A DNA stretch of 64,000 nt from Eledone cirrhosa (lineage: Eukaryota). The DNA lies in assembly GCA_964016885.1 (NCBI GenBank), contig OZ024744.1:10912001-10976000 (forward strand), written 5' to 3'. Below, one piece after another: positions 5,936-64,000 of the stretch. Position 1 is the stretch's first letter. Every line of letters starts with the position of its first letter. The position numbers were made by a program, and so were the translations under genes. Below the pieces are notes generated by a model that was not told the origin of the DNA, did not search any database, and saw only the letters and a list, made by a program, of their open reading frames with translations.

Positions 5936-5954
5936 CAGCATATTTTGTTGATAC

Positions 5955-13268: not shown

Positions 13269-13274
13269 TATATA

Positions 13275-13617: not shown

Positions 13618-13621
13618 ATAA

Positions 13622-14815: not shown

Positions 14816-14994
14816 CACCTCTTAACCAAATATACACCCCAATCCACTACCCCTACCCTATCCTCCAACTCCCACCAACACCACCCTCTCTCTGTAAAGT
14901 TGGTACCACAACATCCAGTCCAAATAAATGAGATCGAGATCATGTAGGTATCCTAAAAAAACACAGTCCACGCTGTAATGTGGCCGTGTAGGTA

Positions 14995-15166: not shown

Positions 15167-15251
15167 TATATATATATACACAGGGAATGTAACATGAAGT
15201 TACTGTCGGTTCACCCAGGTGAGCATTCTGTAGAGCTAGACAGAGTGTAAT

Positions 15252-15486: not shown

Positions 15487-15504
15487 TATATTTATAAGGG
15501 AAAA

Positions 15505-16798: not shown

Positions 16799-16846
16799 TA
16801 TATATCATCATCACCATTTTCCGTCCATTTTTTCATGCTAGCATGG

Positions 16847-16857
16847 GTGTGTGTGTG

Positions 16858-16928
<71 letters not shown>
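16847..16928. repeat. (GT)n(GA)n microsatellite
   Basis: Directly visible. Confidence 0.95.
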
Positions 16929-16929
<1 letters not shown>

Positions 16930-17116
16930 AACATATCTGTGAGAAAAAAGAAAGAAAATAGAAATGAAGAGGAAACATGAATAATTTTGTTTGTTTTGTA
17001 AATAAATACACATTCAATAATAACTCATTGCAGTGATAAGATATATATCTATATATGTGTATATATACTGTGCATGTATGTATGTATAAATACATATGTA
17101 TAGTAAGCAGTACAGT

Positions 17117-19395: not shown

Positions 19396-19496
19396 TATAT
19401 ATATATATATATATATATAACGAAGGAAGTGTGGTAAGGAACCAGATGGACCATAACACACCAGAGTACTCAATACTTAGGGTAGTAGAGTGAGTA

Positions 19497-19602
19497 ATAG
19501 GAAAATGTTTAACCCCGACGGAAGATCTCAAGCTGTTTCTGAGTCCAGAAATAGCCGTCGAAACAGCTTGAGCTCTGCTGTCAGGGTTAAACATTTTCCT
19601 AT
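19497..19602. repeat. Hairpin: 43-bp imperfect inverted arms with a 20-nt loop
   Basis: ATAGGAAAATGTTTAACCCCGACGGAAGATCTCAAGCTGTTTC (19497-19539) pairs with GAAACAGCTTGAGCTCTGCTGTCAGGGTTAAACATTTTCCTAT (19560-19602). Confidence 0.9.
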
Positions 19603-19754
19603 ACATATATACAATATATTAATAAATGGAAACTATATTTATAAAACCATAATTATTTTATTATATATATTTCAAAAGCAACCAAGGCAGTCTTGGTGCG
19701 CTTTCATCAGATAAAATACAAAATTTGTTTTAGAAATAGTGACATAGCTGTGGA

Positions 19755-19792
19755 AAACTCTAGGTCATGCACCGTCACTGTGCATACATACA

Positions 19793-19836
<44 letters not shown>

Positions 19837-19876
19837 GGTGTATGTATGCACAGTGAAGGTGCACGACCTAGAGTTT
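19755..19876. repeat. About 122-bp near-perfect palindrome centred on (TA)n
   Basis: AAACTCTAGGTCATGCACCGTCACTGTGCATACATACACC-(TA)~20-GGTGTATGTATGCACAGTGAAGGTGCACGACCTAGAGTTT; 40-bp arms with 2 mismatches. Confidence 0.92.
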
Positions 19877-20165
19877 AGGGTGTTGTGCTCAAGATTGGAT
19901 TGCTGAATTTGGAGAGTGGGTAGCAAGTTGGTTTAGTTGGCGTCATGGCTACAGGTTGGTGTTTGGTTTGGGGTGTTTTCTTAGTGTTTTGTGGACTGAT
20001 TGAAGCAATAATGGTCTAATTTACGTATGTATAAAAAATGGGTCTTCACCCTATTTTATAACATCTCCATATATGAGCACATCATTCTTTATATTAACTT
20101 TATCTCCTCAGCACTTCATAGAAATTCAAGAGGTCATCTATGTATATATAATGTATATATATATA

Positions 20166-20232
20166 TCATCATCATCATCATCATTTCATTTTACGTCCGC
20201 TTTACCCTGCTTGCAAGGGTGGGACGGGAACT
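20166..20232 (-). mobile_element. 3' tail only of the same SINE family, cut off by the satellite
   Basis: (TCA)n TTTCATTTTACGTCCGCTTTACCCTGCTTGCAAGGGTGGGACGGGAACT matches 13275-13338; satellite monomers follow directly. Confidence 0.88.
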
Positions 20233-22897
20233 TGTGTTGTTGTACTCCAATATGTTGTGTTGTTATACTCCAATGTGGTGTGCTGTTGTAATCCAATATG
20301 TTGTGTTGTACTCCAATATGTTGTGTTGTTATACTCCAATATGTAGTGTTGTTATACTCCAATATGTTATGATGTTGTAGTGCAATATATTGTGTTGTTG
20401 TACTCCAATATGTCTTGTTATAGTCCAATATGTCGTGTTGTTGTACTCCAATATGTCATGTTGTTGTACTCCAATATTTCGTGTTGTTGTACCCCAATAT
20501 GTCGTGTTGATTATACTACAATTTTTGTTGCTGTTGTACTCCAATATGTTGTGTTGTTGTACTCTAATATGTTGTGTTGTTATTCTCCAATATGTTGTGC
20601 TGTTGTACTCCAATGTGTTATGTTGTTATACTCCAATATGTTGTGCTGTGATACTCCAATATGTTGTGTTGTTGTACTCCAATCTGTTGTGTTGTTATAC
20701 TCCAATATGTTGTGTTGTTATACTCCAATATGTTGTGTTGTTTTACTCCAATATGTTGTGTTGTTGTACTCCAATATGTTGTGTTGTAGTACTCCAATAT
20801 GTTGTGTTGTTGTAATCCAATATCTTGTGTTGTTATACTCCAATATGTTGTGTTGTTGTACTCCAATATGTTGTGTTGTTGTTCTCCAATATGTTGTGTT
20901 GTTATACTCCAATATGTTGTGTTATGATACTCCAATATGTTGTGCTGTTGTACTCCAATATGTTGTGTTGTCGTACTCCAATATGTGATGTTGTACTCCA
21001 ATATGTCCTGTTGTTATACTCCAATATGTTGTGTTGTTATACTCCAATATGTCATGGTGTTGTACTTCAATATGTCGTGTTGTTGTACTCCAATATGTTG
21101 TGTTGTTGTACTCCAATACGCGATGTTGTTGTACTCCAATATGTTGTGTTGTTTTACTCCAATATCTTGTGTTGTTATACTCCAATATGTTGTGTTGTTA
21201 TACTCCAATATGTTTTGTTTTTGTACTCCAACATGTTGTGCTGTTGTACTCCAATATGATGTGTTGTTGTACTCCAATATGATGTGCTGTTGTACTCCAA
21301 TGTGTTGTGTTGTTGTACTCCAATATGTTGTGCCGTTGTACTCCAATATTTTTTTTGTTTTTGTACTCCAATATGTTGTGTTTTTATACTCCAATATGTT
21401 GTGTTGGTGTACTCCAATATGGTGTGCTGTTGTACTCCAAATCTCGTGTTGTTATACTCCAATGTGTTGTGTTGTTATACTCCAATATGGTGTGTTTTTG
21501 TACTCCAATATGTTGTATTGTTTTTCTCCAATATGTCATGTTATACTCCAATATGTTGTGTTCGTGTACTCCAATATGTTGTGTTATTGTACTCCAATAT
21601 GTTGCGTTCTTGTACTCCAATATGTTGTGTTGTTATACTCCAATATGTTGTGTTGTTGTACTCCAATATGTTGTTTTGTTGTACTCCAATATGTCATGTT
21701 GTTGTACTCCAGTATGTCTTGTTATACTCCAATATGTCGTGTTGCTGTACTCCAATATGTCATGCTGTTGTACTCCAATATGTTTTGCTGTTGTACTCCA
21801 CTGTGTTGTGTTGTTGAACTCCAATATGTTGTGTTGTTGTTCTCCAATATTTTGTGATGTTGTACTCCAATGTGTTGTGTTGTTATACTCCAATATGTTG
21901 TGTTGTTATACTCCAATATGTTGTGTTGTTATACTCCAATATGTTGTGTTGTTGTACTCCAATATGTTGTGTTGTGATACTCCAATATGTTGTGCTTTTG
22001 TACTCCAATATGTTGAGTTGTTATACTCCAATATGTAGTGTTGTTATACTTCAATATGTTGTGTTGTTGTACTCCAATATGTTGTGTTGTTGTACTCCAA
22101 TATGTTGTGTTGTTGTACTCCAACATGTTGTGTTGTTGTACTCCAATATGTGATATTGTTGTACTCCAATATGTCGCGTTGTTGTACTCCAATATGTTGT
22201 GTTGTTATACTCCAATATTTCGTGTTGTTTTACTACAATATGTCATGTTGTTGTACTCCAGTATGTCTTGTTATACTCCAATATGTCGTGTTGCTGTACT
22301 CCAATATGTCATGCTGTTGTACTCCAATATGTTTTGCTGTTGTACTCCACTGTGTTGTGTTGTTGAACTCCAATATGTTGTGTTGTTGTTCTCCAATATT
22401 TTGTGTTGTTGTACTCCAATTTGTGTTGTTGTACTCCAATATGTTGTGTTGTTGTACTCCAATATGTTGTGTTGTTGTACTCCAATATGTTGTGTTGTTT
22501 TACTCCAATATGTTGTGCTGTTGTACTCCAATATTTCGTGTTGTTGTACTCCAATACGTCGTGTTGTTGTACTCCAATATGTTTTGATGTTGTACTCAAA
22601 TATGTTGTGCTGTTGTACTCCAATATGTTTTGATGTTGTACTCCAATATGTTGTGTTGTTGTACTCCAATCTGTTGTGTAGTCGTACTCCAATATGTTGT
22701 GTTGTTGTACTCCAATATGCTGTGATGTTGTACTCCAATATGATGTGATGTTGTACTCCAATGCGTTGTGTTGTTGTACTCCAATGTGATGTGTTGTTGT
22801 ACTCCAATATGTTGTGCCGTTGTACTCCAATATTTTTTATATTTGTACTCCAATATGTTGTGTTGTTATACTCCAATATGTTGTGTTGTTATACTCA

Positions 22898-25800
22898 AAT
22901 ATGTTGTGCTGTTGTACTCCAAATCTCGTGTTGTTATACTCCAATGTGTTGTGTTGTTATACTCCAATATGGTGTGTTGTTGTAGTCCAATATGTTGTAT
23001 TGTTTTTTTCCAATATGTCATGTTATACTCCAATATGTTGTGTTCGTGTACTCCAATATGTTGTGTTATTGTACTCCAATATGTTGCGTTGTTGTACTCC
23101 AATATGTCTTGTTATACTCCAATATGTCGTGTGGCTGTACTCCAATATGTCATGTTGTTGTACTCCAATATGTCTTGTTATAGTCCAATATGTCGTGTTG
23201 TTGTACTCCAATATGTCATGTAGTTGTATTCCAATATTTCGTGTTGTTGTACCCCAATATGTCGTGTTGTTTATACTCCAATATGTTTTGCTGTTGTACT
23301 CCAATATGTTGTGTTGCTGTATTCCAATATGTTGTGTTGTTATTCTCCAATATGTTGTGCTGTTGTACTCCAATGTGTTATGTTGTTATACTCCAATATG
23401 TTGTGCTGTGCTACTCCAATATATTGTGTTGTTGTACTCCAATGTGTTGTGTTGTTATACTCCAATATGTTGTGTTGATTTACTCCAATATGTTGTGTTG
23501 TTGTACTCCAATCTGTTGTGTTGTTATACTCCAATATGTTGTGTTGTTATACTCCAATATGTTGTGTTGTTTTACTCCAATATGTTGTGTTGTTGTACTC
23601 CAATATGTTGTGTTGTTGTACTCCAATATGTTGTGTTGTTGTAATCCAATATCTTGTGTTGTTATACTCCAATATGTTGTGTTGTACTCCAATATGTTGT
23701 GTTGTTATACTCCAATATGTTGTGTTGTGATACTCCAATATGTTGTGCTGTTGTACTCCAATATGTTGTGTTGTTATACTCCAATATGTTGTGTTGTTTT
23801 ACTCCAATATGTTGTGTTGTTGTACTCCAATATGTTGTATTGTTGTTCTCCAATATGTCATGTTATACTCCAGTAAGTTGTGTTCTTGTACTCCAATATG
23901 TTGTGTTGTTGTACTGCAATATATAATGTTGTCGTACTCCAATATGTCATGTTATACTCCAATATGTCGTTGTTATACTCCAATATGTCATGTTGTTGTA
24001 CTCCAATATGTCGTATTGTTGTACTCCAATATGTTTTGATGTTGTACTCCAATATGTTGTATTGTTGTACTCCAATATGTTGTGTAGTCGTACTCCAATA
24101 TGTTGTATTGTTATACTCCAATATGTTGTGCTGTTGTACTCCAATATGTTCTGTTGTTGTACTCCAATATATTGTGTTGTTGTACTCCAATACGTCGTGT
24201 TGTTGTACTCCAATAGGTCGTGTTGTTGTACTCCAATATGTTGTGTTGTTGTACTCCAATATGTTGTGTTGTTGTACTCCAATATGTTGTGTTGTTATAC
24301 TCCAATATGTTATGTTGTTGTACTCCAATATGTCATGTTGTTGTACTCCAATATGTTTGATGTTGTACTCCAATATGTTGTGTTGTTGTACTCCAATATG
24401 TTCTGGTGTTGTACTCCAATATGTTGTGTTGTTGTACTCCAATATGTTGTGTAGTCGTACTCCAATATGTTGTGTTGTTGTACTCCAATATGCTGTGATG
24501 TTGTACTCCAATATGATGTGCTGTTGTACTCCAATGCGTTGTGTTGTTGTACTCCAATATGCTGTGTTGTTATACTCCAATATGTTGTGTTGTTGTACTC
24601 CAATATGTTGTGTTGTTGTACTCCAATATGTTGTGTTGTTGTAATCCAATATCTTGTGTTGTTATACTCCAATATGTTGTGCTGTTGTACTCCAATATGT
24701 TGAGTTGTTATACTCCAATATGTAGTGTTGTTATACTCCAATATGTTGTGTTGTTGTACTCCAATCTGTTGCGTTATACTCCAATATGTTGTGTTGTTAT
24801 ACTCCAATATGTTGTGTTGTTATACTCCAATATGTTGTGTTGTTTTACTCCAATATGTTGTATTGTTGATCTCCAATATGTCATATTATACTCCAATAAG
24901 TTGTGTTCTTGTACTCCAATATGTGTTGTTGTTGTACTCCAATATGTTGCGTTGTTGTACTCCAATATATCATGTTGTCGTACTCCAATATGTCATGTTA
25001 TACTCCAATATGTTTTGATGCTGTACTCCAATATGTTGTGTTGTTGTACTACAATATGCTGTGTTGTTGTACTCCAATATGTTGTGTTGTTATACTCCAA
25101 TATGTTGTGCTGTTGTACTCCAATTTGTTGTGTTGTTATACTCCAATATGTAGTGTTGTTATACTCCAATATGTTGTGTTGTTGTACTCCAATCTGTTGT
25201 GTTGTTATACTCCAATATATTGTGTTGTTATACTCCAATATGTTGTGTTGTTTTACTCCAATATGTTGTGTTGTACTCCAATATGTTGTATTGTTGTTCT
25301 CCAATATGTCATGTTATACTCCAATAAGTTGTGTTCTTGTACTCCAATATGTTGTGTTGTTGTACTCCAATATGTTGTTTTGTTGTACTCCAATATATCA
25401 TGTTGTCGTACTCCAATATGTCACGTTATACTCCAATATGTCGTTGTTATACTCCAATATGTCATGATGTTGTACTCCAATGTGTCGTGTACTTGTACTC
25501 CAATATGTCGTGTTGTCGTACTCCAATATGTTGTGTTGTTGTACTCCAATATGTTGTGCTGTTGTACTCCAATATGTTGTGTTGTTGTACTCCAATATGT
25601 TGTGTTGTTATACTCCAATATGTTATGTTGTTGTACTCCAATATGTCTTGTTGTTGTACTCCAATATGTTTTGATGTTGTACTCCAATATGTTGTGTTGT
25701 TGCACTCCAATATGTTTTGATATTGTACTCCAATATGTTGTGTTGTTGTACTCCAATATGTTGTGTAGTCGTACTCCAATATGTTGTGTTGTTGTACTCT

Positions 25801-28800
25801 AATATGTTTTGTTGTTATTCTCCAATATGTTGTGATGTTGTACTCCAATGTGTTGTGTTGTTGTACTCCAATGTGATGTGTTGTTGTACTCCAAAATGTT
25901 ATGCTGTTGTACTCCAATATTTTTTTGTTTTTTGTACTCCAATATGTTGTGTTGTTATACTCCAATATGTTGTGTTGTTATACTCCAATATGTTGTGCTG
26001 TTGTACTCCAAATCTCGTGTTGTTATACTCCAATGTGTTGTGTTGTTATACTCCAATATGGTGTGTTGTTGTACTCCAATATGTTGTATTGTTTTCTCCA
26101 ATATGTCATGTTATACTCCAATATGGTGTGTTCGTGTACGCCAATATGTTGTGTTATTGTACTCCAATATGTTGCGTTGTTGTACTCCAATATGTTGTGT
26201 TGTTATACTCCAATATGTCGTGTGACTGTACTCCAATATGTCATGTTGTTGTACTCCAATATGTCTTGTTATAGTCCAATATGTCGTGTTGTTGTACTCC
26301 AATATATCATGTAGTTGTACTCCAATATTTCGTGTTGTTGTACCCCAATATGTAGTGTTGTTTATACTCCAATATGTTTTGCTGTTGTACTCCAATATGT
26401 TGTGTTGCTGTACTCCTATATGTTGTGTTGTTATTCTCCAATATGTTGTGCTGTTGTACTCCAATGTGTTGTGTTGTTATACTCCAATATGTTCTGTTGT
26501 TGTACTCCAATATGTTGTGTTGTTGTACTCCAATATGTTGTGTTGTTGTACTCCAATGTGCTGTGTTGTTGTACTCCAATATGTTGTGTTGTTGTACTCC
26601 AATATGTTGTGTTGTTGTACTCCAATATGTTGTGTTGTTATACTCCAATATTTCGTGTGGTTGTACTCCAATATGTCATGGTGTTGTACTTCAATATGTC
26701 GTGTTGTTGTACTCCAATATGTTGTCTTGCTGTACTCCAATCTGTTGTGTTGTTGTACTCCAATGTGTTGTGTTGTTGTACTCCAATATGTTGTGCCGTT
26801 GTACTCCAATATGTCATGTTATACTCCAATATGTTGTGTTCGTGTACTCCAATATGTTGTGTTATTGTACTCCAATATGTTGCGTTGTTGTACTCCAATA
26901 TGTTGTGTTGTTATACTCCAATATGTTGTGTTGTTGTACTCCAATATGTCATGTTGTTGTACTCCAGTATGTCTTGTTATACTCCAATATGTCGTGTTGC
27001 TGTACTCCAATATGTCATGCTGTTGTACTCCAATATTTCGTGTCGTTGTACTCCAATATGTCGTGCTTTTGTACTCCAATATGTTTTGCTGTTGTACTCC
27101 ACTGTGTTGTGTTGTTGAACTCCAATATGTTGTGTTGTTGTTCTCCAATATTTTGTGCTGTTGTACTCCAATTTGTGTTGTTGTACTCCAATATGTTGTG
27201 TTGTTGTACTCCAATATGTTGTGTTGTTGTACTCCAATATGTTGTGTTGTTATACTCCAATATGTTGTGCTGTTGTACTCCAATATTTCGTGTTGTTGTA
27301 CTCCAATACGTCGTGTTGTTGTACTCCAATATGTTTTGATGTTGTACTCAAATATGTTGTGTTGTTGTACTCCAATATGTTTTGATGTTGTACTCCAATA
27401 TGTTGTGTTGTTGTACTCCAATATGTTGTGTAGTCGTACTCCAATATGTTGTGTTGTTGTACTCCAATATGCTGTGATGTTGTACTCCAATATGATGTGA
27501 TGTTGTACTACAATGCGTTGTGTTGTTGTACTCCAATGTGATGTGTTGTTGTACTCCAATATGTTGTGCCGTTGTACTCCAATATTTTTTATTTTTGTAC
27601 TCCAATATGTTGTGTTGTTATACTCCAATATGTTGTGTTGTTATACTCCAATATGTTGTGCTGTTGTACTCCAAATCTCGTGTTGTTATACTCCAATGTG
27701 TTGTGTTGTTATACTCCAATATGGTGTGTTGTTGTAGTCCAATATGTTGTATTGTTTTTCTTCCAATATGTCATGTTATACTCCAATATGTTGTGTTCGT
27801 GTACTCCAATATGTTGTGTTATTGTACTCCAATATGTTGCGTTGTTGTACTCCAATATGTTGTGTTGTTATACTCCAATATGTTGTGTTGTTGTACTCCA
27901 ATATGTTGTGTTGTTATACTCCAATATGTTGTGCTGTTGTACTCCAATATGTTGTGTTGTTATACTCCAATATGTAGTGTTGTTATACTCCAATATGTTG
28001 TGTTGTTGTACTCCAATCTGTTGTGTTGTTATACTCCAATATATTGTGTTGTTATACTCCAATATGTTGTGTTGTTTTACTCCAATATGTTGTGTTGTTG
28101 TACTCCAATATGTTGTATTGTTGTTCTCCAATATGTCATGTTATACTCCAATAAGTTGTGTTCTTGTACACCAATATGTTGTGTTGTTGTACTCCAATAT
28201 GTTGTTTTGTTGTACTCCAATATATCATGTTGTCGTACTCCAATATGTCACGTTATACTCCAATATGTCGTTGTTATACTCCAATATGTCATGATGTTGT
28301 ACTCCAATATGTCGTGTTCTTGTACTCCAATATGTCGTGTTGTCATACTCCAATATGTTGTGTTGTTGTACTCCAATATGTTGTGTTGTTGTACTCCAAT
28401 ATGTTGTGTTGTTGTACTCCAATATGTTGTGTTGTTATACTCCAATATGTTGTGCTGTTGTACTCCAATATTTCGTGTTGTTGTACTCCAATACATCGTG
28501 TTGTACTCCAATATGTTGTGTTGTTATACTCCAATATGTTATGTTGTTGTACTCCAATATGTCTTGTTGTTGTACTCCAATATGTTTTGATGTTGTACTC
28601 CAATATGTTGTGTTGTTGCACTCCAATATGTTTTGATGTTGTACTCCAATATGTTGTGTTGTTGTACTCCAATATGTTGTGTAGTCGTACTCCAATATGT
28701 TGTATTGTTGTACTCTAATATGTTTTGTTGTTATTCTCCAATATGTTGTGATGTTGTACTCCAATGTGTTGTGTTGTTGTACTCCAATGTGATGTGTTGT

Positions 28801-31800
28801 TGTACTCCAAAATGTTGTGATGTTGTACTCCAATATTTTTTGTTTTTTGTACTCCAATATGTTGTGTTGTTATACTCCAATATGCTGTGTTGTTATACTC
28901 CAATATGTTGTGCTGTTGTACTCCAAATCTCGTGTTGTTATACTCCAATGTGTTGTGTTGTTATACTCCAATATGGTGTGTTGTTGTACTCCAATATGTT
29001 GTATTGTTTTCTCCAATATGTCATGTTATACTCCAATATGTTGTGTTCGTGTACGCCAATATGTTGTGTTATTGTACTCCAATATGTTGCGTTGTTGTAC
29101 TCCAATATGTTGTGTTGTTATACTCCAATATGTCGTGTGGCTGTACTCCAATATGTCATGTTGTTGTACTCCAATATGTCTTGTTATAGTCCAATATGTC
29201 GTGTTGTTGTACTCCAATATATCATGTAGTTGTACTCCAATATTTCGTGTTGTTGTACCCCAATATGTAGTGTTGTTTATACTCCAATATGTTTTGCTGT
29301 TGTACTCCAATATGTTGTGTTGCTGTACTCCTATATGTTGTGTTGTTATTCTCCAATATGTTGTGCTGTTGTACTCCAATGTGTTGTGTTGTTATACTCC
29401 AATATGTTCTGTTGTTGTACTCCAATATGTTGTGTTGTTGTACTCCAATATGTTGTGTTGTTGTACTCCAATGTGCTGTGTTGTTGTACTCCAATATGTT
29501 GTGTTGTTGTACTCCAATATGTTGTGTTGTTATACTCCAATATTTCGTGTGGTTGTACTCCAATATGTCATGGTGTTGTACTTCAATATGTCGTGTTGTT
29601 GTACTCCAATATGTTGTCTTGCTGTACTCCAATCTGTTGTGTTGTTGTACTCCAATGTGTTGTGTTGTTGTACTCCAATATGTTGTGCCGTTGTACTCCA
29701 ATATGTCATGTTATACTCCAATATGTTGTGTTCGTGTACTCCAATATGTTGTGTTATTGTACTCCAATATGTTGCGTTGTTGTACTCCAATATGTTGTGT
29801 TGTTATACTCCAATATGTTGTGTTGTTGTACTCCAATATGTCATGTTGTTGTACTCCAGTATGTCTTGTTATACTCCAATATGTCGTGTTGCTGTACTCC
29901 AATATGTCATGCTGTTGTACTCCAATATTTCGTGTCGTTGTACTCCAATATGTCGTGCTTTTGTACTCCAATATGTTTTGCTGTTGTACTCCACTGTGTT
30001 GTGTTGTTGAACTCCAATATGTTGTGTTGTTGTTCTCCAATATTTTGTGCTGTTGTACTCCAATTTGTGTTGTTGTACTCCAATATGTTGTGTTGTTGTA
30101 CTCCAATATGTTGTGTTGTTGTACTCCAATATGTTGTGTTGTTATACTCCAATATGTTGTGCTGTTGTACTCCAATATTTCGTGTTGTTGTACTCCAATA
30201 CGTCGTGTTGTTGTACTCCAATATGTTTTGATGTTGTACTCAAATATGTTGTGTTGTTGTACTCCAATATGTTTTGATGTTGTACTCCAATATGTTGTGT
30301 TGTTGTACTCCAATATGTTGTGTAGTCGTACTCCAATATGTTGTGTTGTTGTACTCCAATATGCTGTGATGTTGTACTCCAATATGATGTGATGTTGTAC
30401 TACAATGCGTTGTGTTGTTGTACTCCAATGTGATGTGTTGTTGTACTCCAATATGTTGTGCCGTTGTACTCCAATATTTTTTATTTTTGTACTCCAATAT
30501 GTTGTGTTGTTATACTCCAATATGTTGTGTTGTTATACTCCAATATGTTGTGCTGTTGTACTCCAAATCTCGTGTTGTTATACTCCAATGTGTTGTGTTG
30601 TTATACTCCAATATGGTGTGTTGTTGTAGTCCAATATGTTGTATTGTTTTTCTTCCAATATGTCATGTTATACTCCAATATGTTGTGTTCGTGTACTCCA
30701 ATATGTTGTGTTATTGTACTCCAATATGTTGCGTTGTTGTACTCCAATATGTTGTGTTGTTATACTCCAATATGTTGTGTTGTTGTACTCCAATATGTTG
30801 TGTTGTTATACTCCAATATGTTGTGCTGTTGTACTCCAATATGTTGTGTTGTTATACTCCAATATGTAGTGTTGTTATACTCCAATATGTTGTGTTGTTG
30901 TACTCCAATCTGTTGTGTTGTTATACTCCAATATATTGTGTTGTTATACTCCAATATGTTGTGTTGTTTTACTCCAATATGTTGTGTTGTTGTACTCCAA
31001 TATGTTGTATTGTTGTTCTCCAATATGTCATGTTATACTCCAATAAGTTGTGTTCTTGTACACCAATATGTTGTGTTGTTGTACTCCAATATGTTGTTTT
31101 GTTGTACTCCAATATATCATGTTGTCGTACTCCAATATGTCACGTTATACTCCAATATGTCGTTGTTATACTCCAATATGTCATGATGTTGTACTCCAAT
31201 ATGTCGTGTTCTTGTACTCCAATATGTCGTGTTGTCATACTCCAATATGTTGTGTTGTTGTACTCCAATATGTTGTGTTGTTGTACTCCAATATGTTGTG
31301 TTGTTGTACTCCAATATGTTGTGTTGTTATACTCCAATATGTTGTGCTGTTGTACTCCAATATTTCGTGTTGTTGTACTCCAATACATCGTGTTGTACTC
31401 CAATATGTTGTGTTGTTATACTCCAATATGTTATGTTGTTGTACTCCAATATGTCTTGTTGTTGTACTCCAATATGTTTTGATGTTGTACTCCAATATGT
31501 TGTGTTGTTGCACTCCAATATGTTTTGATGTTGTACTCCAATATGTTGTGTTGTTGTACTCCAATATGTTGTGTAGTCGTACTCCAATATGTTGTATTGT
31601 TGTACTCTAATATGTTTTGTTGTTATTCTCCAATATGTTGTGATGTTGTACTCCAATGTGTTGTGTTGTTGTACTCCAATGTGATGTGTTGTTGTACTCC
31701 AAAATGTTGTGATGTTGTACTCCAATATTTTTTTGTTTTTTGTACTCCAATATGTTGTGTTGTTATACTCCAATATGCTGTGTTGTTATACTCCAATATG

Positions 31801-52400: not shown

Positions 52401-55400
52401 TGTACTCCAATATGTTGTATTGTTTTCTCCAATATGTCATGTTATACTCCAATATGGTGTGTTCGTGTACGCCAATATGTTGTGTTATTGTACTCCAATA
52501 TGTTGCGTTGTTGTACTCCAATATGTTGTGTTGTTATACTCCAATATGTCGTGTGGCTGTACTCCAATATGTCATGTTGTTGTACTCCAATATGTCTTGT
52601 TATAGTCCAATATGTCGTGTTGTTGTACTCCAATATATCATGTAGTTGTACTCCAATATTTCGTGTTGTTGTACCCCAATATGTAGTGTTGTTTATACTC
52701 CAATATGTTTTGCTGTTGTACTCCAATATGTTGTGTTGCTGTACTCCTATATGTTGTGTTGTTATTCTCCAATATGTTGTGCTGTTGTACTCCAATGTGT
52801 TGTGTTGTTATACTCCAATATGTTCTGTTGTTGTACTCCAATATGTTGTGTTGTTGTACTCCAATATGTTGTGTTGTTGTACTCCAATGTGCTGTGTTGT
52901 TGTACTCCAATATGTTGTGTTGTTGTACTCCAATATGTTGTGTTGTTATACTCCAATATGTTGTGTTGTTATACTCCAATATTTCGTGTGGTTGTACTCC
53001 AATATGTCATGGTGTTGTACTTCAATATGTCGTGTTGTTGTACTCCAATATGTTGTCTTGCTGTACTCCAATCTGTTGTGTTGCTGTACTCCAATGTGTT
53101 GTGTTGTTGTACTCCAATATGTTGTGCCGTTGTACTCCAATATGTCATGTTATACTCCAATATGTTGTGTTCGTGTACTCCAATATGTTGTGTTATTGTA
53201 CTCCAATATGTTGCGTTGTTGTACTCCAATATGTTGTGTTGTTATACTCCAATATGTTGTGGTGTTGTACTCCAATATGTCATGTTGTTGTACTCCAGTA
53301 TATCTTGTTATACTCCAATATGTCGTGTTGCTGTACTCCAATATGTCATGCTGTTGTACTCCAATATTTCGTGTCGTTGTACTCCAATATGTCGTGCTTT
53401 TGTACTCCAATATGTTTTGCTGTTGTACTCCACTGTGTTGTGTTGTTGAACTCCAATATGTTGTGTTGTTGTTCTCCAATATTTTGTGCTGTTGTACTCC
53501 AATGTGTTGTGTTGTTATACTCCAATATGTTGTGTTGTGATACTCCAATGTGTTGTGCTGTTGTAATACAATATGTTATGTTGTACTCCAATATGTTGTG
53601 TTGTTATACTCCAATATGTAGTGTTGTTATACTCCAATATGTTGCGTTGTTGTACCCCAATATGTCGTGTTGATTATACTACAATTTTTGTTGCTGTTGT
53701 ACTCCAATATGTTGTGTTGTTGTACTCTAATATGTTGTGTTGTTATTCTCCAATATGTTGTGCTGTTGTACTCCAATGTGTTATGTTGTTATACTCCAAT
53801 ATGTTGTGCTGTGATACTCCAATATGTTGTGTTGTTGTACTCCAATCTGTTGTGTTGTTATACTCCAATATATTGTGTTGTTATACTCCAATATGTTGCG
53901 TTGTTTTACTCCAATATGTTGTGTTGTTGTACTCCAATATGTTGTGTTGTAGTACTCCAATATGTTGTGTTGTTGTAATCCAATATCTTGTGTTGTTATA
54001 CTCCAATATGTTGTGTTGTTGTACTCCAATATGTTGTGTTGTTATACTCCAATATGTTGTGTTATGATACTCCAATATGTTGTGCTGTTGTACTCCAATA
54101 TTTTGTGTTGTCGTACTCCAATATGTGATGTTGTACTCCAATATGTCCTGTTGTTATACTCCAATATGTTGTGTTGTTATACTCCAATATGTCATGGTGT
54201 TGTACTTCAATATGTCGTGTTGTTGTACTCCAATATGTTGTGTTGTTGTACTCCAATACGCGATGTTGTTGTACTCCAATATGTTGTGTTGTTTTACTCC
54301 AATATCTTGTGTTGTTATACTCCAATATGTTGTGTTGTTATACTCCAATATGTTGTGTTTTTGTACTCCAACATGTTGTGCTGTTGTACTCCAATATGAT
54401 GTGTTGTTGTACTCCAATATGATGTGCTGTTGTACTCCAATGTGTTGTGTTGTTGTACTCCAATATGTTGTGCCGTTGTACTCCAATTTTTTTTGTTTTT
54501 GTACTCCAATATGTTGTGTTTTTATACTCCAATATGTTGTGTTGGTGTACTCCAATATGGTGTGCTGTTGTACTCCAAATCTCGTGTTGTTATACTCCAA
54601 TGTGTTGTGTTGTTATACTCCAATATGGTGTGTTGTTGTACTCCAATATGTTGTATTGTTTTTCTCCAATATGTCATGTTATACTCCAATATGTTGTGTT
54701 CGTGTACTCCAATATGTTGTGTTATTGTACTCCAATATGTTGCGTTCTTGTACTCCAATATGTTGTGTTGTTATACTCCAATATGTTGTGTTGTTGTACT
54801 CCAATATGTTGTTTTGTTGTACTCCAATATGTCATGTTGTTGTACTCCAGTATGTCTTGTTATACTCCAATATGTCGTGTTGCTGTATTCCAATATGTTG
54901 TGTTGTTATTCTCCAATATGTTGTGCTGTTGTACTCCAATGTGTTATGTTGTTATACTCCAATATGTTGTGCTGTGCTACTTCAATATATTGTGTTGTTG
55001 TACTCCAATGTGTTGTGTTGTTATACTCCAATATGTTGTGTTGTTATACTCCAATATGTTGTGTTGTTATACTCCAATATGTTGTGTTGTTGTACTCCAA
55101 TATGTTGTGTTGTGATACTCCAATATGTTGTGCTTTTGTACTCCAATATGTTGAGTTGTTATACTCCAATATGTAGTGTTGTTATACTTCAATATGTTGT
55201 GTTGTTGTACTCCAATATGTTGTGTTGTTGTACTCCAATATGTTGTGTTGTTGTACTCCAACATGTTGTGTTGTTGTACTCCAATATGTGATATTGTTGT
55301 ACTCCAATATGTCGCGTTGTTGTACTCCAATATGTTGTGTTGTTATACTCCAATATTTCGTGTTGTTTTACTACAATATGTCATGTTGTTGTACTCCAGT

Positions 55401-58400
55401 ATGTCTTGTTATACTCCAATATGTCGTGTTGCTGTACTCCAATATGTCATGCTGTTGTACTCCAATATGTTTTGCTGTTGTACTCCACTGTGTTGTGTTG
55501 TTGAACTCCAATATGTTGTGTTGTTGTTCTCCAATATTTTGTGCTGTTGTACTCCAATTTGTGTTGTTGTACTCCAATATGTTGTGTTGTTGTACTCCAA
55601 TATGTTGTGTTGTTGTACTCCAATATGTTGTGTTGTTTTACTCCAATATGTTGTGCTGTTGTACTCCAATATTTCGTGTTGTTGTACTCCAATATGTTTT
55701 GATGTTGTACTCAAATATGTTGTGCTGTTGTACTCCAATATGTTTTGATGTTGTACTCCAATATGTTGTGTTGTTGTACTCCAATATGTTGTGTAGTCGT
55801 ACTCCAATATGTTGTGTTGTTGTACTCCAATATGCTGTGATGTTGTACTCCAATATGATGTGATGTTGTACTACAATGCGTTGTGTTGTTGTACTCCAAT
55901 GTGATGTGTTGTTGTACTCCAATATGTTGTGCCGTTGTACTCCAATATTTTTTATTTTTGTACTCCAATATGTTGTGTTGTTATACTCCAATATGTTGTG
56001 TTGTTATACTCCAATATGTTGTGCTGTTGTACTCCAAATCTCGTGTTGTTATACTCCAATGTGTTGTGTTGTTATACTCCAATATGGTGTGTTGTTGTAG
56101 TCCAATATGTTGTATTGTTTTTCTTCCAATATGTCATGTTATACTCCAATATGTTGTGTTCGTGTACTCCAATATGTTGTGTTATTGTACTCCAATATGT
56201 TGCGTTGTTGTACTCCAATATGTTGTGTTGTTATACTCCAATATGTTGTGTTGTTGTACTCCAATATGTTGTGTTGTTATACTCCAATATGTTGTGCTGT
56301 TGTACTCCAATATGTTGTGTTGTTATACTCCAATATGTAGTGTTGTTATACTCCAATATGTTGTGTTGTTGTACTCCAATCTGTTGTGTTGTTATACTCC
56401 AATATATTGTGTTGTTATACTCCAATATGTTGTGTTGTTTTACTCCAATATGTTGTGTTGTTGTACTCCAATATGTTGTATTGTTGTTCTCCAATATGTC
56501 ATGTTATACTCCAATAAGTTGTGTTCTTGTACACCAATATGTTGTGTTGTTGTACTCCAATATGTTGTTTTGTTGTACTCCAATATATCATGTTGTCGTA
56601 CTCCAATATGTCACGTTATACTCCAATATGTCGTTGTTATACTCCAATATGTCATGATATTGTACTCCAATATGTCGTGTTCTTGTACTCCAATATGTCG
56701 TGTTGTCATACTCCAATATGTTGTGTTGTTGTACTCCAATATGTTGTGTTGTTGTACTCCAATATGTTGTGTTGTTGTACTCCAATATGTTGTGTTGTTA
56801 TACTCCAATATGTTGTGCTGTTGTACTCCAATATTTCGTGTTGTTGTACTCCAATACATCGTGTTGTACTCCAATATGTTGTGTTGTTATACTCCAATAT
56901 GTTATGTTGTTGTACTCCAATATGTCTTGTTGTTGTACTCCAATATGTTTTGATGTTGTACTCCAATATGTTGTGTTGTTGCACTCCAATATGTTTTGAT
57001 GTTGTACTCCAATATGTTGTGTTGTTGTACTCCAATATGTTGTGTAGTCGTACTCCAATATGTTGTATTGTTGTACTCTAATATGTTTTGTTGTTATTCT
57101 CCAATATGTTGTGATGTTGTACTCCAATGTGTTGTGTTGTTGTACTCCAATGTGATGTGTTGTTGTACTCCAAAATGTTGTGATGTTGTACTCCAATATT
57201 TTTTGTTTTTTGTACTCCAATATGTTGTGTTGTTATACTCCAATATGCTGTGTTGTTATACTCCAATATGTTGTGCTGTTGTACTCCAAATCTCGTGTTG
57301 TTATACTCCAATGTGTTGTGTTGTTATACTCCAATATGGTGTGTTGTTGTACTCCAATATGTTGTATTGTTTTCTCCAATATGTCATGTTATACTCCAAT
57401 ATGGTGTGTTCGTGTACGCCAATATGTTGTGTTATTGTACTCCAATATGTTGCGTTGTTGTACTCCAATATGTTGTGTTGTTATACTCCAATATGTCGTG
57501 TGGCTGTACTCCAATATGTCATGTTGTTGTACTCCAATATGTCTTGTTATAGTCCAATATGTCGTGTTGTTGTACTCCAATATATCATGTAGTTGTACTC
57601 CAATATTTCGTGTTGTTGTACCCCAATATGTAGTGTTGTTTATACTCCAATATGTTTTGCTGTTGTACTCCAATATGTTGTGTTGCTGTACTCCTATATG
57701 TTGTGTTGTTATTCTCCAATATGTTGTGCTGTTGTACTCCAATGTGTTGTGTTTTTATACTCCAATATGTTCTGTTGTTGTACTCCAATATGTTGTGTTG
57801 TTGTACTCCAATATGTTGTGTTGTTGTACTCCAATGTGCTGTGTTGTTGTACTCCAATATGTTGTGTTGTTGTACTCCAATATGTTGTGTTGTTGTACTC
57901 CAATATGTTGTGTTGTTATACTCCAATATTTCGTGTGGTTGTACTCCAATATGTCATGGTGTTGTACTTCAATATGTCGTGTTGTTGTACTCCAATATGT
58001 TGTCTTGCTGTACTCCAATCTGTTGTGTTGTTGTACTCCAATGTGTTGTGTTGTTGTACTCCAATATGTTGTGCCGTTGTACTCCAATATGTCATGTTAT
58101 ACTCCAATATGTTGTGTTCGTGTACTCCAATATGTTGTGTTATTGTACTCCAATATGTTGCGTTGTTGTACTCCAATATGTTGTGTTGTTATACTCCAAT
58201 ATGTTGTGTTGTTGTACTCCAATATGTCATGTTGTTGTACTCCAGTATGTCTTGTTATACTCCAATATGTCGTGTTGCTGTACTCCAATATGTCATGCTG
58301 TTGTACTCCAATATTTCGTGTCGTTGTACTCCAATATGTCGTGCTTTTGTACTCCAATATGTTTTGCTGTTGTACTCCACTGTGTTGTGTTGTTGAACTC

Positions 58401-61400
58401 CAATATGTTGTGTTGTTGTTCTCCAATATTTTGTGCTGTTGTACTCCAATTTGTGTTGTTGTACTCCAATATGTTGTGTTGTTGTACTCCAATATGTTGT
58501 GTTGTTGTACTCCAATATGTTGTGTTGTTATACTCCAATATGTTGTGCTGTTGTACTCCAATATTTCGTGTTGTTGTACTCCAATACGTCGTGTTGTTGT
58601 ACTCCAATATGTTTTGATGTTGTACTCAAATATGTTGTGTTGTTGTACTCCAATATGTTTTGATGTTGTACTCCAATATGTTGTGTTGTTGTACTCCAAT
58701 ATGTTGTGTAGTCGTACTCCAATATGTTGTGTTGTTGTACTCCAATATGCTGTGATGTTGTACTCCAATATGATGTGATGTTGTACTACAATGCGTTGTG
58801 TTGTTGTACTCCAATGTGATGTGTTGTTGTACTCCAATATGTTGTGCCGTTGTACTCCAATATTTTTTATTTTTGTACTCCAATATGTTGTGTTGTTATA
58901 CTCCAATATGTTGTGTTGTTATACTCCAATATGTTGTGCTGTTGTACTCCAAATCTCGTGTTGTTATACTCCAATGTGTTGTGTTGTTATACTCCAATAT
59001 GGTGTGTTGTTGTAGTCCAATATGTTGTATTGTTTTTCTTCCAATATGTCATGTTATACTCCAATATGTTGTGTTCGTGTACTCCAATATGTTGTGTTAT
59101 TGTACTCCAATATGTTGCGTTGTTGTACTCCAATATGTTGTGTTGTTATACTCCAATATGTTGTGTTGTTGTACTCCAATATGTTGTGTTGTTATACTCC
59201 AATATGTTGTGCTGTTGTACTCCAATATGTTGTGTTGTTATACTCCAATATGTAGTGTTGTTATACTCCAATATGTTGTGTTGTTGTACTCCAATCTGTT
59301 GTGTTGTTATACTCCAATATATTGTGTTGTTATACTCCAATATGTTGTGTTGTTTTACTCCAATATGTTGTGTTGTTGTACTCCAATATGTTGTATTGTT
59401 GTTCTCCAATATGTCATGTTATACTCCAATAAGTTGTGTTCTTGTACACCAATATGTTGTGTTGTTGTACTCCAATATGTTGTTTTGTTGTACTCCAATA
59501 TATCATGTTGTCGTACTCCAATATGTCACGTTATACTCCAATATGTCGTTGTTATACTCCAATATGTCATGATGTTGTACTCCAATATGTCGTGTTCTTG
59601 TACTCCAATATGTCGTGTTGTCATACTCCAATATGTTGTGTTGTTGTACTCCAATATGTTGTGTTGTTGTACTCCAATATGTTGTGTTGTTGTACTCCAA
59701 TATGTTGTGTTGTTATACTCCAATATGTTGTGCTGTTGTACTCCAATATTTCGTGTTGTTGTACTCCAATACATCGTGTTGTACTCCAATATGTTGTGTT
59801 GTTATACTCCAATATGTTATGTTGTTGTACTCCAATATGTCTTGTTGTTGTACTCCAATATGTTTTGATGTTGTACTCCAATATGTTGTGTTGTTGCACT
59901 CCAATATGTTTTGATGTTGTACTCCAATATGTTGTGTTGTTGTACTCCAATATGTTGTGTAGTCGTACTCCAATATGTTGTATTGTTGTACTCTAATATG
60001 TTTTGTTGTTATTCTCCAATATGTTGTGATGTTGTACTCCAATGTGTTGTGTTGTTGTACTCCAATGTGATGTGTTGTTGTACTCCAAAATGTTGTGATG
60101 TTGTACTCCAATATTTTTTGTTTTTTGTACTCCAATATGTTGTGTTGTTATACTCCAATATGCTGTGTTGTTATACTCCAATATGTTGTGCTGTTGTACT
60201 CCAAATCTCGTGTTGTTATACTCCAATGTGTTGTGTTGTTATACTCCAATATGGTGTGTTGTTGTACTCCAATATGTTGTATTGTTTTCTCCAATATGTC
60301 ATGTTATACTCCAATATGGTGTGTTCGTGTACGCCAATATGTTGTGTTATTGTACTCCAATATGTTGCGTTGTTGTACTCCAATATGTTGTGTTGTTATA
60401 CTCCAATATGTCGTGTGGCTGTACTCCAATATGTCATGTTGTTGTACTCCAATATGTCTTGTTATAGTCCAATATGTCGTGTTGTTGTACTCCAATATAT
60501 CATGTAGTTGTACTCCAATATTTCGTGTTGTTGTACCCCAATATGTAGTGTTGTTTATACTCCAATATGTTTTGCTGTTGTACTCCAATATGTTGTGTTG
60601 CTGTACTCCTATATGTTGTGTTGTTATTCTCCAATATGTTGTGCTGTTGTACTCCAATGTGTTGTGTTGTTATACTCCAATATGTTCTGTTGTTGTACTC
60701 CAATATGTTGTGTTGTTGTACTCCAATATGTTGTGTTGTTGTACTCCAATGTGCTGTGTTGTTGTACTCCAATATGTTGTGTTGTTGTACTCCAATATGT
60801 TGTGTTGTTATACTCCAATATGTTGTGTTGTTATACTCCAATATTTCGTGTGGTTGTACTCCAATATGTCATGGTGTTGTACTTCAATATGTCGTGTTGT
60901 TGTACTCCAATATGTTGTCTTGCTGTACTCCAATCTGTTGTGTTGCTGTACTCCAATGTGTTGTGTTGTTGTACTCCAATATGTTGTGCCGTTGTACTCC
61001 AATATGTCATGTTATACTCCAATATGTTGTGTTCGTGTACTCCAATATGTTGTGTTATTGTACTCCAATATGTTGCGTTGTTGTACTCCAATATGTTGTG
61101 TTGTTATACTCCAATATGTTGTGGTGTTGTACTCCAATATGTCATGTTGTTGTACTCCAGTATATCTTGTTATACTCCAATATGTCGTGTTGCTGTACTC
61201 CAATATGTCATGATGTTGTACTCCAATATTTCGTGTCGTTGTACTCCAATATGTCGTGCTTTTGTACTCCAATATGTTTTGCTGTTGTACTCCACTGTGT
61301 TGTGTTGTTGAACTCCAATATGTTGTGTTGTTGTTCTCCAATATTTTGTGCTGTTGTACTCCAATGTGTTGTGTTGTTATACTCCAATATGTTGTGTTGT

Positions 61401-63943
61401 GATACTCCAATGTGTTGTGCTGTTGTAATACAATATGTTATGTTGTACTCCAATATGTTGTGTTGTTATACTCCAATATGTAGTGTTGTTATACTCCAAT
61501 ATGTTGCGTTGTTGTACCCCAATATGTCGTGTTGATTATACTACAATTTTTGTTGCTGTTGTACTCCAATATGTTGTGTTGTTGTACTCTAATATGTTGT
61601 GTTGTTATTCTCCAATATGTTGTGCTGTTGTACTCCAATGTGTTATGTTGTTATACTCCAATATGTTGTGCTGTGATACTCCAATATGTTGTGTTGTTGT
61701 ACTCCAATCTGTTGTGTTGTTATACTCCAATATATTGTGTTGTTATACTCCAATATGTTGCGTTGTTTTACTCCAATATGTTGTGTTGTTGTACTCCAAT
61801 ATGTTGTGTTGTAGTACTCCAATATGTTGTGTTGTTGTAATCCAATATCTTGTGTTGTTATACTCCAATATGTTGTGTTGTTGTACTCCAATATGTTGTG
61901 TTGTTATACTCCAATATGTTGTGTTATGATACTCCAATATGTTGTGCTGTTGTACTCCAAATCTCGTGTTGTTATACTCCAATGTGTTGTGTTGTTATAC
62001 TCCAATATGGTGTGTTGTTGTACTCCAATATTTTGTGTTGTCGTACTCCAATATGTGATGTTGTACTCCAATATGTCCTGTTGTTATACTCCAATATGTT
62101 GTGTTGTTATACTCCAATATGTCATGGTGTTGTACTTCAATATGTCGTGTTGTTGTACTCCAATATGTTGTGTTGTTGTACTCCAATACGCGATGTTGTT
62201 GTACTCCAATATGTTGTGTTGTTTTACTCCAATATCTTGTGTTGTTATACTCCAATATGTTGTGTTGTTATACTCCAATATGTTGTGTTTTTGTACTCCA
62301 ACATGTTGTGCTGTTGTACTCCAATATGATGTGTTGTTGTACTCCAATATGATGTGCTGTTGTACTCCAATGTGTTGTGTTGTTGTACTCCAATATGTTG
62401 TGCCGTTGTACTCCAATATTTTTTTGTTTTTGTACTCCAATATGTTGTGTTTTTATACTCCAATATGTTGTGTTGGTGTACTCCAATATGGTGTGCTGTT
62501 GTACTCCAAATCTCGTGTTGTTATACTCCAATGTGTTGTGTTGTTATACTCCAATATGGTGTGTTGTTGTACTCCAATATGTTGTATTGTTTTTCTCCAA
62601 TATGTCATGTTATACTCCAATATGTTGTGTTCGTGTACTCCAATATGTTGTGTTATTGTACTCCAATATGTTGCGTTCTTGTACTCCAATATGTTGTGTT
62701 GTTATACTCCAATATGTTGTGTTGTTGTACTCCAATATGTTGTTTTGTTGTACTCCAATATGTCATGTTGTTGTACTCCAGTATGTCTTGTTATACTCCA
62801 ATATGTCGTGTTGCTGTATTCCAATATGTTGTGTTGTTATTCTCCAATATGTTGTGCTGTTGTACTCCAATGTGTTATGTTGTTATACTCCAATATGTTG
62901 TGCTGTGCTACTTCAATATATTGTGTTGTTGTACTCCAATGTGTTGTGTTGTTATACTCCAATATGTTGTGTTGTTATACTCCAATATGTTGTGTTGTTA
63001 TACTCCAATATGTTGTGTTGTTGTACTCCAATATGTTGTGTTGTGATACTCCAATATGTTGTGCTTTTGTACTCCAATATGTTGAGTTGTTATACTCCAA
63101 TATGTAGTGTTGTTATACTTCAATATGTTGTGTTGTTGTACTCCAATATGTTGTGTTGTTGTACTCCAATATGTTGTGTTGTTGTACTCCAACATGTTGT
63201 GTTGTTGTACTCCAATATGTGATATTGTTGTACTCCAATATGTCGCGTTGTTGTACTCCAATATGTTGTGTTGTTATACTCCAATATTTCGTGTTGTTTT
63301 ACTACAATATGTCATGTTTTTGTACTCCAGTATGTCTTGTTATACTCCAATATGTCGTGTTGCTGTACTCCAATATGTCATGCTGTTGTACTCCAATATG
63401 TTTTGCTGTTGTACTCCACTGTGTTGTGTTGTTGAACTCCAATATGTTGTGTTGTTGTTCTCCAATATTTTGTGCTGTTGTACTCCAATTTGTGTTGTTG
63501 TACTCCAATATGTTGTGTTGTTGTACTCCAATATGTTGTGTTGTTGTACTCCAATATGTTGTGTTGTTTTACTCCAATATGTTGTGCTGTTGTACTCCAA
63601 TATTTCGTGTTGTTGTACTCCAATATGTTTTGATGTTGTACTCAAATATGTTGTGCTGTTGTACTCCAATATGTTTTGATGTTGTACTCCAATATGTTGT
63701 GTTGTTGTACTCCAATATGTTGTGTAGTCGTACTCCAATATGTTGTGTTGTTGTACTCCAATATGCTGTGATGTTGTACTCCAATATGATGTGATGTTGT
63801 ACTCCAATGCGTTGTGTTGTTGTACTCCAATGTGATGTGTTGTTGTACTCCAATATGTTGTGCCGTTGTACTCCAATATTTTTTATATTTGTACTCCAAT
63901 ATGTTGTGTTGTTATACTCCAATATGTTGTGTTGTTATACTCC
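43421..63943. repeat. 20,523-bp higher-order repeat, copy 2
   Basis: As for copy 1. The only internal difference I found is G29670 versus A50193. Confidence 0.95.
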
Positions 63944-64000
63944 AATATGTTGTGCTGTTGTACTCCAAATCTCGTGTTGTTATACTCCAATGTGTTGTGT

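What the first reader, a model, noticed from the sequence alone, without database searches (positions are those of the whole stretch)
20233..64000. Five-level nested higher-order repeat built from a tiny 23-bp monomer: candidate centromeric or pericentromeric satellite
Seen: rare monomer variants recur at fixed spacings. The 22-bp variant CCAAATCTCGTG occurs at about 26010, 27673, 28925, 30565, 31818, 35513, 36765, 38428 and 39680, with alternating ~1,252 and 1,640-1,663 bp steps inside each run, summing to 2,892 or 2,915 bp. The variant GATTATACTACA occurs at 20509, 33149, 41011, 53672 and 61534 (steps 12,640, 7,862, 12,661, 7,862), and 12,661+7,862 = 20,523. The hierarchy is therefore 23 bp, 1.25/1.65 kb, 2.9 kb (~127 monomers), 7.9/12.7 kb, 20.5 kb (~900 monomers). 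Established: HORs flanked by TE-rich DNA are typical of primate alpha-satellite and other centromeres, usually with monomers of 150-360 bp and far fewer monomers per HOR. Inference: this is an actively homogenising array, possibly a centromere. I do not recognise the monomer as a described family.
Basis: partly seen in the sequence, partly recalled or inferred. Interest (0 to 1): 0.8.

Follow-up and report, generated by a model that had tools for sequence, protein, structure and literature searches.

The report
Single-locus 23-bp megabase satellite, serially duplicated
This is part of a 1.67-million-base array of one 23-base repeat found at a single place in a large animal genome; its nested spacings are real but change along the array and likely record one-off duplications of several kilobases rather than a fixed higher-order unit, and a centromere role is possible but untested.

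Summary
The array and marker spacings are real. The window holds the start of a 917-kb block of a 1.67-Mb, 73,231-monomer satellite. All 58,461 genome-wide matches (up to 2 mismatches) lie at this one locus, on one strand. The clean nested levels are 23 bp, 2.9 kb, 7.9 kb (2 copies) and 20.5 kb (2 copies, 3 mismatches). The 1.25/1.65-kb pieces are unlike halves of one unit and 12.7 kb is a remainder. Each part of the array has its own periods (82 duplications, 62 size classes), and a neutral duplication-deletion simulation, tuned to the data, gives the same nesting. So this is a nested tandem repeat of the HSat3/DYZ1 kind, not a fixed HOR. Two extras: detected duplications are almost never shorter than about 1.4 kb despite homology every 23 bp, and the TE-rich 'flank' is a 99.9%-identical copy of the array's right flank, 938 kb away. 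It cannot be a pan-chromosomal centromere repeat in this assembly; a chromosome-specific centromere remains possible (~0.2). The scan reached a similar verdict for a satellite in another genome (e1-679753); nothing is noted for this genome or sequence.

The parts
20232..64000 (+). 23-bp satellite, consensus TTGTGTTGTTGTACTCCAATATG; first 43.8 kb of block B (917,137 bp, G000:C28:10,932,232-11,849,368)
   Evidence: TRF; monomer decomposition, 1,922 pieces, 179 types; extent
22559..43081 (+). First copy of the 20,523-bp (~900-monomer) tandem duplication; begins in a 919-bp stretch that is repeated at each breakpoint
43082..63604 (+). Second and last copy of the 20,523-bp duplication; homology runs on to about 64,523, just past the window
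   Evidence: 3 mismatches in 20,918 bp; match 21,442 bp at lag 20,523; spacing changes downstream
27667..43437 (+). Two tandem copies of a 7.84-7.93-kb unit (X Y X Y'S' Z) inside the 20.5-kb unit; repeated at 48,190-63,960
   Evidence: monomer strings; lags 7,840-7,931 with 0-4 mismatches per 1.6-2.2 kb
26004..31811 (+). Two tandem copies of the 2,892/2,915-bp unit (127-128 monomers) made of unlike halves Y (1,640-1,663 bp) and X (1,252 bp)
   Evidence: lag 2,892 with 0 mismatches in 2,241 bp, lag 2,915 with 8 in 2,777 bp
20150..20232 (.). Junction of the 938-kb duplication: a SINE-like dispersed repeat is cut and joined to the satellite with one shared base; the same element runs on intact in the right flank
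   Evidence: the element's normal continuation appears as loose ends in public contigs; the SINE label is recalled
1..20231 (.). Spacer of decayed LINE fragments and microsatellites (21,077 bp, starting 845 bp before the window) between blocks A and B; a copy of the DNA right of block B
   Evidence: 26 substitutions in 21,159 aligned columns, lag 938,213; RT and PHD domains at 13,683-14,723

Best explanation
This is a non-coding, single-locus 23-bp satellite of 1.67 Mb whose nested spacings were likely produced by serial, in-register tandem duplications of mostly 1.4-22 kb, each copying earlier duplications, probably through homology-directed repair or unequal exchange, with no fixed higher-order unit. 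Shown: single locus, single strand, no insertions inside either block, periods that differ from place to place, in-register junctions, near-absence of short duplications, and two classes of breakpoint homology. Inferred: the repair mechanism, neutrality, a heterochromatic state, and that the 938-kb duplication of array end plus flank is the largest step of the same history.
For: 5,178 of 5,178 exact 33-mers and 58,461 of 58,461 matches at up to 2 mismatches fall in C28:10.16-11.85 Mb, 0 on the reverse strand, 0 for the control. Each 40-kb bin has its own leading lags. 82 tandem duplications in 62 size classes, median 5.2 kb; larger repeats at lags of 25.5, 37.8, 60.2 and 103.8 kb. Nesting depth 3 occurs in 3 of 37 windows of this size, this one included. 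A neutral simulation with steps of 60-1,000 monomers gives depth 3 in 6 of 90 windows and a median collapsed length of 1,568 monomers against 1,567 real (one of 8 settings). New variants hit all 23 positions (10-44 of 626 each) and all 69 possible substitutions are present. Breakpoint homology is 11-50 bp in 9 and at least 124 bp in 8 of 17 distinct events (22 rows; 4 repeats of the same event and 1 row with 4.5% mismatches dropped); 0.3% of random in-register pairs reach 100 bp. Precedent: periodicity-preserving kilobase duplications, and simulated block formation from them, in Arabidopsis centromeres (sections read); locally varying nested tandem repeats in HSat2/3 (passages).
Against: The simulation was tuned: depth 3 or more ranged from 0 of 149 windows (two settings) to 47 of 75, so it shows sufficiency, not neutrality. 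Age does not rise cleanly from large to small levels (one 2,892-bp pair has 0 mismatches). A 9.7-kb block shared at ~99.9% between blocks A and B, 670 kb apart, is not a tandem duplication and needs long-range copying or survival of one orthologous piece. Some of the long breakpoint homologies may be partial third copies. No reads were shown to bridge any junction. A megabase, insertion-free, fast-turnover array is also what centromeres look like.
Confidence: 0.75

Rival explanations
1. The array is the chromosome-specific functional centromere of C28 (compatible with the same duplication mechanism).
For: 1.67 Mb with no transposon inside either block; block structure and fast turnover; a cluster of other satellites on its left; position at 7.4-8.7% of a 136.5-Mb contig, possible for a subtelocentric chromosome. 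Vicia faba has centromeric satellites of 44-50 bp, each specific to one chromosome (passages).
Against: Absent from all other contigs. Divergence from consensus is flat, 5.6-6.3% per 50 kb, with no young core or decayed edges. No folding excess, z -1.3 to +1.9 in 7 stretches. No conserved box among new variants. HOR-like patterns also occur in non-centromeric maize knobs and do not mark CENH3 domains (abstract). The lack of insertions may only reflect LINE preference for microsatellites, where both new flank insertions lie.
Confidence: 0.2
2. The top levels are assembly artefacts: blocks A and B are two haplotypes joined in tandem, or the 20.5-kb pair is a false duplication.
For: Spacer and flank differ by 0.12% and two insertions, within the range of heterozygosity. 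The 20.5-kb pair differs at 3 sites only. Public contigs did not show the junction bridged. Read depth of duplicated versus single-copy flank was not measured.
Against: No N in 1.864 Mb (assumes gaps are kept as N). The junction is non-homologous and cuts a dispersed repeat at one base. Block B resembles only the right half of A and lacks the 108-bp neighbour. Duplications span a range of divergence, 0-0.27%. Satellite centromeres assembled accurately in a replicated test (section read).
Confidence: 0.15
3. A canonical, maintained multi-level HOR as in alpha satellite, with 2.9, 7.9 and 20.5 kb as stable units.
For: The lags exist and units contain whole monomers.
Against: 20.5 kb has two copies and 7.9 kb two per unit; these lags lead only in the two 40-kb bins that cover the window, and 36 or so other bins have other periods.
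Confidence: 0.04

Closest known systems
Human HSat2/HSat3 nested tandem repeats, including DYZ1 on Yq12 (10.1101/2021.07.12.452052 and 10.1101/2022.12.01.518724; passages read)
   Same: Short ancestral unit with multi-kilobase longer periods; periodicity varies locally along the array; chromosome-specific subfamilies; iterative duplications up to megabases that span satellite blocks; not the kinetochore site in humans.
   Different: Unrelated sequence. Here the 23-bp monomer is still discrete (~6% from consensus) and no kilobase unit has spread through the array as the 3.6-kb DYZ1 unit has.
Arabidopsis CEN178 arrays (10.1101/2025.06.02.657473; abstract and sections 5, 7, 11 read)
   Same: In-register tandem and mosaic duplications of kilobase size, homogenised blocks, faster change than flanking DNA.
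   Different: 178-bp monomer on all chromosomes with CENH3; insertions of 1-31 units including single units. Here the steps are 60-960 monomers and short ones are nearly absent.
Maize CentC and knob arrays (PMC13011684; abstract only)
   Same: Local, low-copy HOR patterns in megabase similarity blocks; patterns not tied to centromere function.
   Different: Longer monomers, many loci; no drive system is known for this array.
Bovine 1.706 satellite (recalled: 23-bp motifs in a ~2.35-kb patchwork unit; one search did not return a paper confirming this)
   Same: Same monomer length and a ~100-monomer patchwork unit.
   Different: Recalled as GC-rich, multi-chromosomal and with a fixed unit; no sequence comparison was run.
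Primate alpha-satellite HORs (passages; other features recalled)
   Same: Megabase, transposon-poor, single-orientation array of whole monomers.
   Different: 171-bp monomers, a canonical HOR repeated hundreds of times, one array per chromosome, layered age gradient; none of these holds here.

Membership tests
Canonical HOR satellite (alpha-satellite type) | Higher unit made of a whole number of similar-length monomers | tested here: met
   127-128, ~345 and ~900 monomers
Canonical HOR satellite (alpha-satellite type) | Higher units far more alike than neighbouring monomers | tested here: met
   99.4-100% against 82% ungapped identity at lag 23
Canonical HOR satellite (alpha-satellite type) | One unit repeated many times through the array | tested here: not met
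   82 events in 62 size classes; leading lags differ by bin
Nested tandem repeat satellite (HSat2/3, DYZ1 type of architecture) | Short basic unit with kilobase periods that vary along the array | tested here: met
Nested tandem repeat satellite (HSat2/3, DYZ1 type of architecture) | Iterative large duplications spanning blocks | tested here: met
   20-104 kb repeats; 938-kb duplication in the assembly, not verified with reads
HSat2/3 sequence family | Descent from the CATTC pentamer | tested here: not met
   The consensus holds no such unit
Pan-chromosomal centromeric satellite | An array on most or all chromosomes | tested here: not met
   58,461 of 58,461 matches at one locus
Centromeric satellite (any) | Large, homogeneous, transposon-poor array | tested here: met
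   751 + 917 kb, monomer lengths 15-28 bp throughout, no inserts
Centromeric satellite (any) | Young core with older, decayed flanking layers | tested here: not met
   Flat 5.6-6.3% divergence, sharp edges
Centromeric satellite (any) | CENP-A occupancy, methylation dip, primary constriction | not testable with these tools
   Needs ChIP/CUT&Tag, long-read methylation, FISH

The most novel reading that the evidence does not exclude
The array is the private centromere of one chromosome, built on a 23-bp monomer with no fixed HOR, and it shows that satellite duplication steps have a floor of about 1.4 kb set by the repair or chromatin machinery and not by monomer length or available homology. The size floor alone (without the centromere role) is perhaps 0.45 likely to be a general property.
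Probability: 0.12. Interest if true: 0.72.

Novelty: new member of a known kind. Interest (0 to 1): 0.38.

Why it matters
As a family it is one more species-level satellite. Its value is as a fine ruler: with homology every 23 bp, the array can separate 'number of monomers' from 'kilobases' as the unit of satellite growth, which 170-180-bp centromere repeats do poorly. Detected steps cluster at 1.4-22 kb and neighbouring monomers are no more alike than shuffled ones, which argues against slippage or small-offset exchange as the homogenising force. The duplicated flank gives an internal clock: while the flanks diverged 0.12%, the two blocks lost alignment within about 650 bp of their shared edge. 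If CENP-A binds, it would be a chromosome-specific centromere in a group for which my searches listed no defined centromere sequence.

Tried and rejected
Fixed five-level HOR: rejected. Pan-chromosomal centromere repeat: rejected for this assembly. Neighbouring satellites as one-per-chromosome markers: rejected; the 108-bp and 48-bp repeats occur at several places on single contigs (lists are partial, 40 candidates scored in each DNA search). Origin of the 23-mer from the abutting 108-bp satellite: a 25-column local match in the same orientation, p = 0.04 (monomer) and 0.08 (trimer) against 1,000 shuffles; kept as a weak lead only. Conserved protein-binding box: the TACTCCAA core varies less overall (0.6-3.9%) but new variants fall across all positions, so founder effects suffice. 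Dyad or folding excess: none. Genes in the flanks: of 14 ORFs scanned, 9 matched retroelement domains and 5 matched nothing; short exons were not sought. Public runs: contigs of one organism contain the satellite and the unique spacer DNA, but no listed piece bridges the junction, which proves nothing either way; the depth comparison of duplicated and single-copy flank was not run. The ungapped BLAST of the shared A-B block printed nothing; that block rests. Whole-block collapse of B stalled after 7 events and was replaced by 150-kb chunks, which miss duplications above about 25 kb or across chunk ends. Literature: a 15-base piece of the monomer is in 0 papers of the held library (main texts only, supplements not searched and bioRxiv supplements closed); searches for cephalopod centromeric satellites listed no describing paper (listings only). 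Earlier scan notes: none for this genome, no relevant sequence match.
Full report
Observation. The window carries a 23-bp tandem array from 20,232 to its end (1,921 copies). Long shared k-mers peak at lags 20,523, 10,755, 7,840-7,863 and 2,892/2,915. These are far beyond chance: 20,918 bp match at lag 20,523 with 3 mismatches.

Grammar of the window. Writing the array as monomer types gives five kinds of piece: X (1,252 bp), Y (1,640-1,663), Y'S' (2,236-2,305), Z (1,459-1,482) and E (3,089). The 20,523-bp unit reads E Y (X Y X Y'S' Z) (X Y X Y'S' Z). So 2.9 kb is X+Y, 7.9 kb is the bracket and has two copies, and 20.5 kb has two copies. X and Y share 23% of monomers in short blocks (like pieces 97-100%, shuffles 0.6%), so they are patchwork relatives but not copies. 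The 12.7-kb spacing is what remains after removing one 7.9-kb copy. Strict collapse finds three nested levels above the monomer.

The whole locus. The window lies at G000:C28:10,912,001-10,976,000 in a 3.0-Gb assembly. I read 1.864 Mb around it. The satellite forms block A (10,159,655-10,911,155; 751,501 bp) and block B (10,932,232-11,849,368; 917,137 bp), 73,231 monomers, with no N and no insertion in either block. All 5,178 exact 33-mer matches and all 58,461 matches at up to 2 mismatches in the genome fall here, on the + strand. More diverged relatives elsewhere would have been missed. To the left lie a 56-kb 108-bp satellite, a 21-kb 48-bp satellite and 72-bp repeats alternating with LINE copies; the first two are scattered over several contigs and several places per contig. 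The dispersed repeats look like those of octopods; that is recalled and was not tested.

No fixed HOR. Each 40-kb bin has its own leading lags. A chunked collapse found 82 tandem duplications in 62 size classes, median 5.2 kb, and direct matching found larger repeats at 25.5, 37.8, 60.2 and 103.8 kb. This window is among the most nested: depth 3 in 3 of 37 equal windows, depth 2 in 11, depth 1 in 17, none in 6. Random in-register duplication, deletion and mutation reproduce this: with steps of 60-1,000 monomers and the highest mutation load tried, depth was 0/1/2/3 in 8/53/23/6 of 90 windows and the median collapsed length 1,568 against 1,567. Across the 15 settings tried, depth 3 or more ranged from 0% to 63%, so the match shows sufficiency only.

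A size floor. 79 of the 82 duplications are 60-960 monomers long (1.4-22 kb); with log-uniform step sizes the same detector puts 192 of 357 below 60 monomers. There is no exact informative tandem pair at lags of 5-60 monomers, and lags of 1-4 are about as frequent as in shuffles. Rare monomer types recur at or below the shuffled baseline in nearly all lag bins under 60 monomers (one exception, lag 2 in block B) and rise above it from about 90-200. Breakpoint homology is bimodal, 11-50 bp in 9 and at least 124 bp in 8 of 17 distinct events, while 0.3% of random pairs reach 100 bp. The 20.5-kb event belongs to the long class (919 bp). Events with short homology are also 1.5-22 kb long, so the floor is not explained by a need for long homology. 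Either short duplications rarely form or they are removed quickly; one assembly cannot tell which.

The top level. The window's first 20 kb is not an outer flank. It is a 21,077-bp copy of the DNA that follows block B, 938,213 bp away, with 26 substitutions in 21,159 columns; the right-hand copy has two extra LINE insertions of 5.6 and 2.9 kb in microsatellites. The copy ends inside a SINE-like element, joined to the satellite with one shared base. Block B is related to the right half of A only. The share of B's k-mers found in A falls from 0.45 at 92 bases to 0.19 at 184 and 0.05 at 368, about 0.9% change per base by my arithmetic, some seven times the flank figure; this includes rearrangement breakpoints and non-orthologous pairs. 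Ungapped alignment from the shared edge holds for about 650 bp. One 9.7-kb block is shared at ~99.9% across 670 kb. The gap-free, non-homologous junction favours a real duplication, but public contigs did not show it bridged and read depth was not compared, so a haplotype join keeps about 15%.

Mechanism. Shown: in-register junctions, local periods, the size distribution and two homology classes. Inferred: homology-directed repair (unequal sister exchange or break-induced replication) as in Arabidopsis mutation-accumulation lines, where all 56 large indels kept the register and simulations built blocks from them (10.1101/2025.06.02.657473, sections read), and in human cells where array change needs RAD52 and PIF1 (PMC11034957, abstract). 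No sign of constraint was found: new variants cover all positions.

Centromere. A repeat shared by all centromeres is excluded for this assembly. A chromosome-specific centromere is not: Vicia faba has such satellites with 44-50-bp monomers (PMC5895790, passages). Against it are the flat divergence profile, the lack of folding excess and the fact that HOR-like patterns occur in non-centromeric arrays (PMC13011684, abstract). I put it at 0.2.

Comparison and verdict. The architecture matches the nested tandem repeats described for human HSat2/3, whose periods vary locally (10.1101/2021.07.12.452052, passages), and Yq12, where a pentamer-derived 3.6-kb unit and iterative duplications up to 5 Mb occur (10.1101/2022.12.01.518724, passages). 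The sequence is unrelated to them, and a 15-base piece of it is in no main text of the held library (supplements not searched). It is a new member of a known kind. Interest 0.38: the nested pattern is an expected by-product, while the single-locus megabase size, the kilobase floor on duplication length and the flank-calibrated turnover are worth a follow-up.

Noticed in passing
G000:C28:10,103,282-10,159,655 (L173, L081-L085): 108-bp satellite, about 56 kb, abutting the 23-bp array in the same orientation and interrupted by a 4.8-kb LTR-type retroelement; also on C10, C18, C20, C22-C27. Weak similarity to the 23-mer.
   Followed up: partly
G000:C28:10,081,941-10,103,327 (L173-L176): 48-bp satellite, 21 kb, with open frames rich in Cys/Thr repeats in several phases; family present at many loci on C12, C25-C28 and C1132.
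   Followed up: partly
G000:C28:10,052,108-10,072,374 (L176-L178): Four short arrays of a 72-bp repeat alternating with three ~6.3-kb endonuclease-RT LINE copies 95-97% alike: either a target-specific LINE or a composite tandem unit.
   Followed up: no
G000:C28:10,603,582-10,615,917 versus 11,274,346 and 11,296,169: A 9.7-kb stretch shared at ~99.9% between blocks A and B, 670 and 692 kb apart, while the surrounding DNA does not match; the B copy was then duplicated by a 21,823-bp event with 0 mismatches.
   Followed up: partly
L169:192-5830 and L170:4981-7880: Two recent LINE insertions (5.6 kb with endonuclease, RT and C2H2 fingers; 2.9 kb with an 864-codon RT-PHD frame) present only in the right-hand copy of the duplicated flank, both in microsatellites.
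   Followed up: partly
G000:C20:6.10-6.51 Mb: A larger array or cluster of the 108-bp satellite on the reverse strand near the start of another contig.
   Followed up: no
window 16593-16721: 26-bp tandem repeat, 5 copies, one copy longer than in the right-flank duplicate.
   Followed up: no
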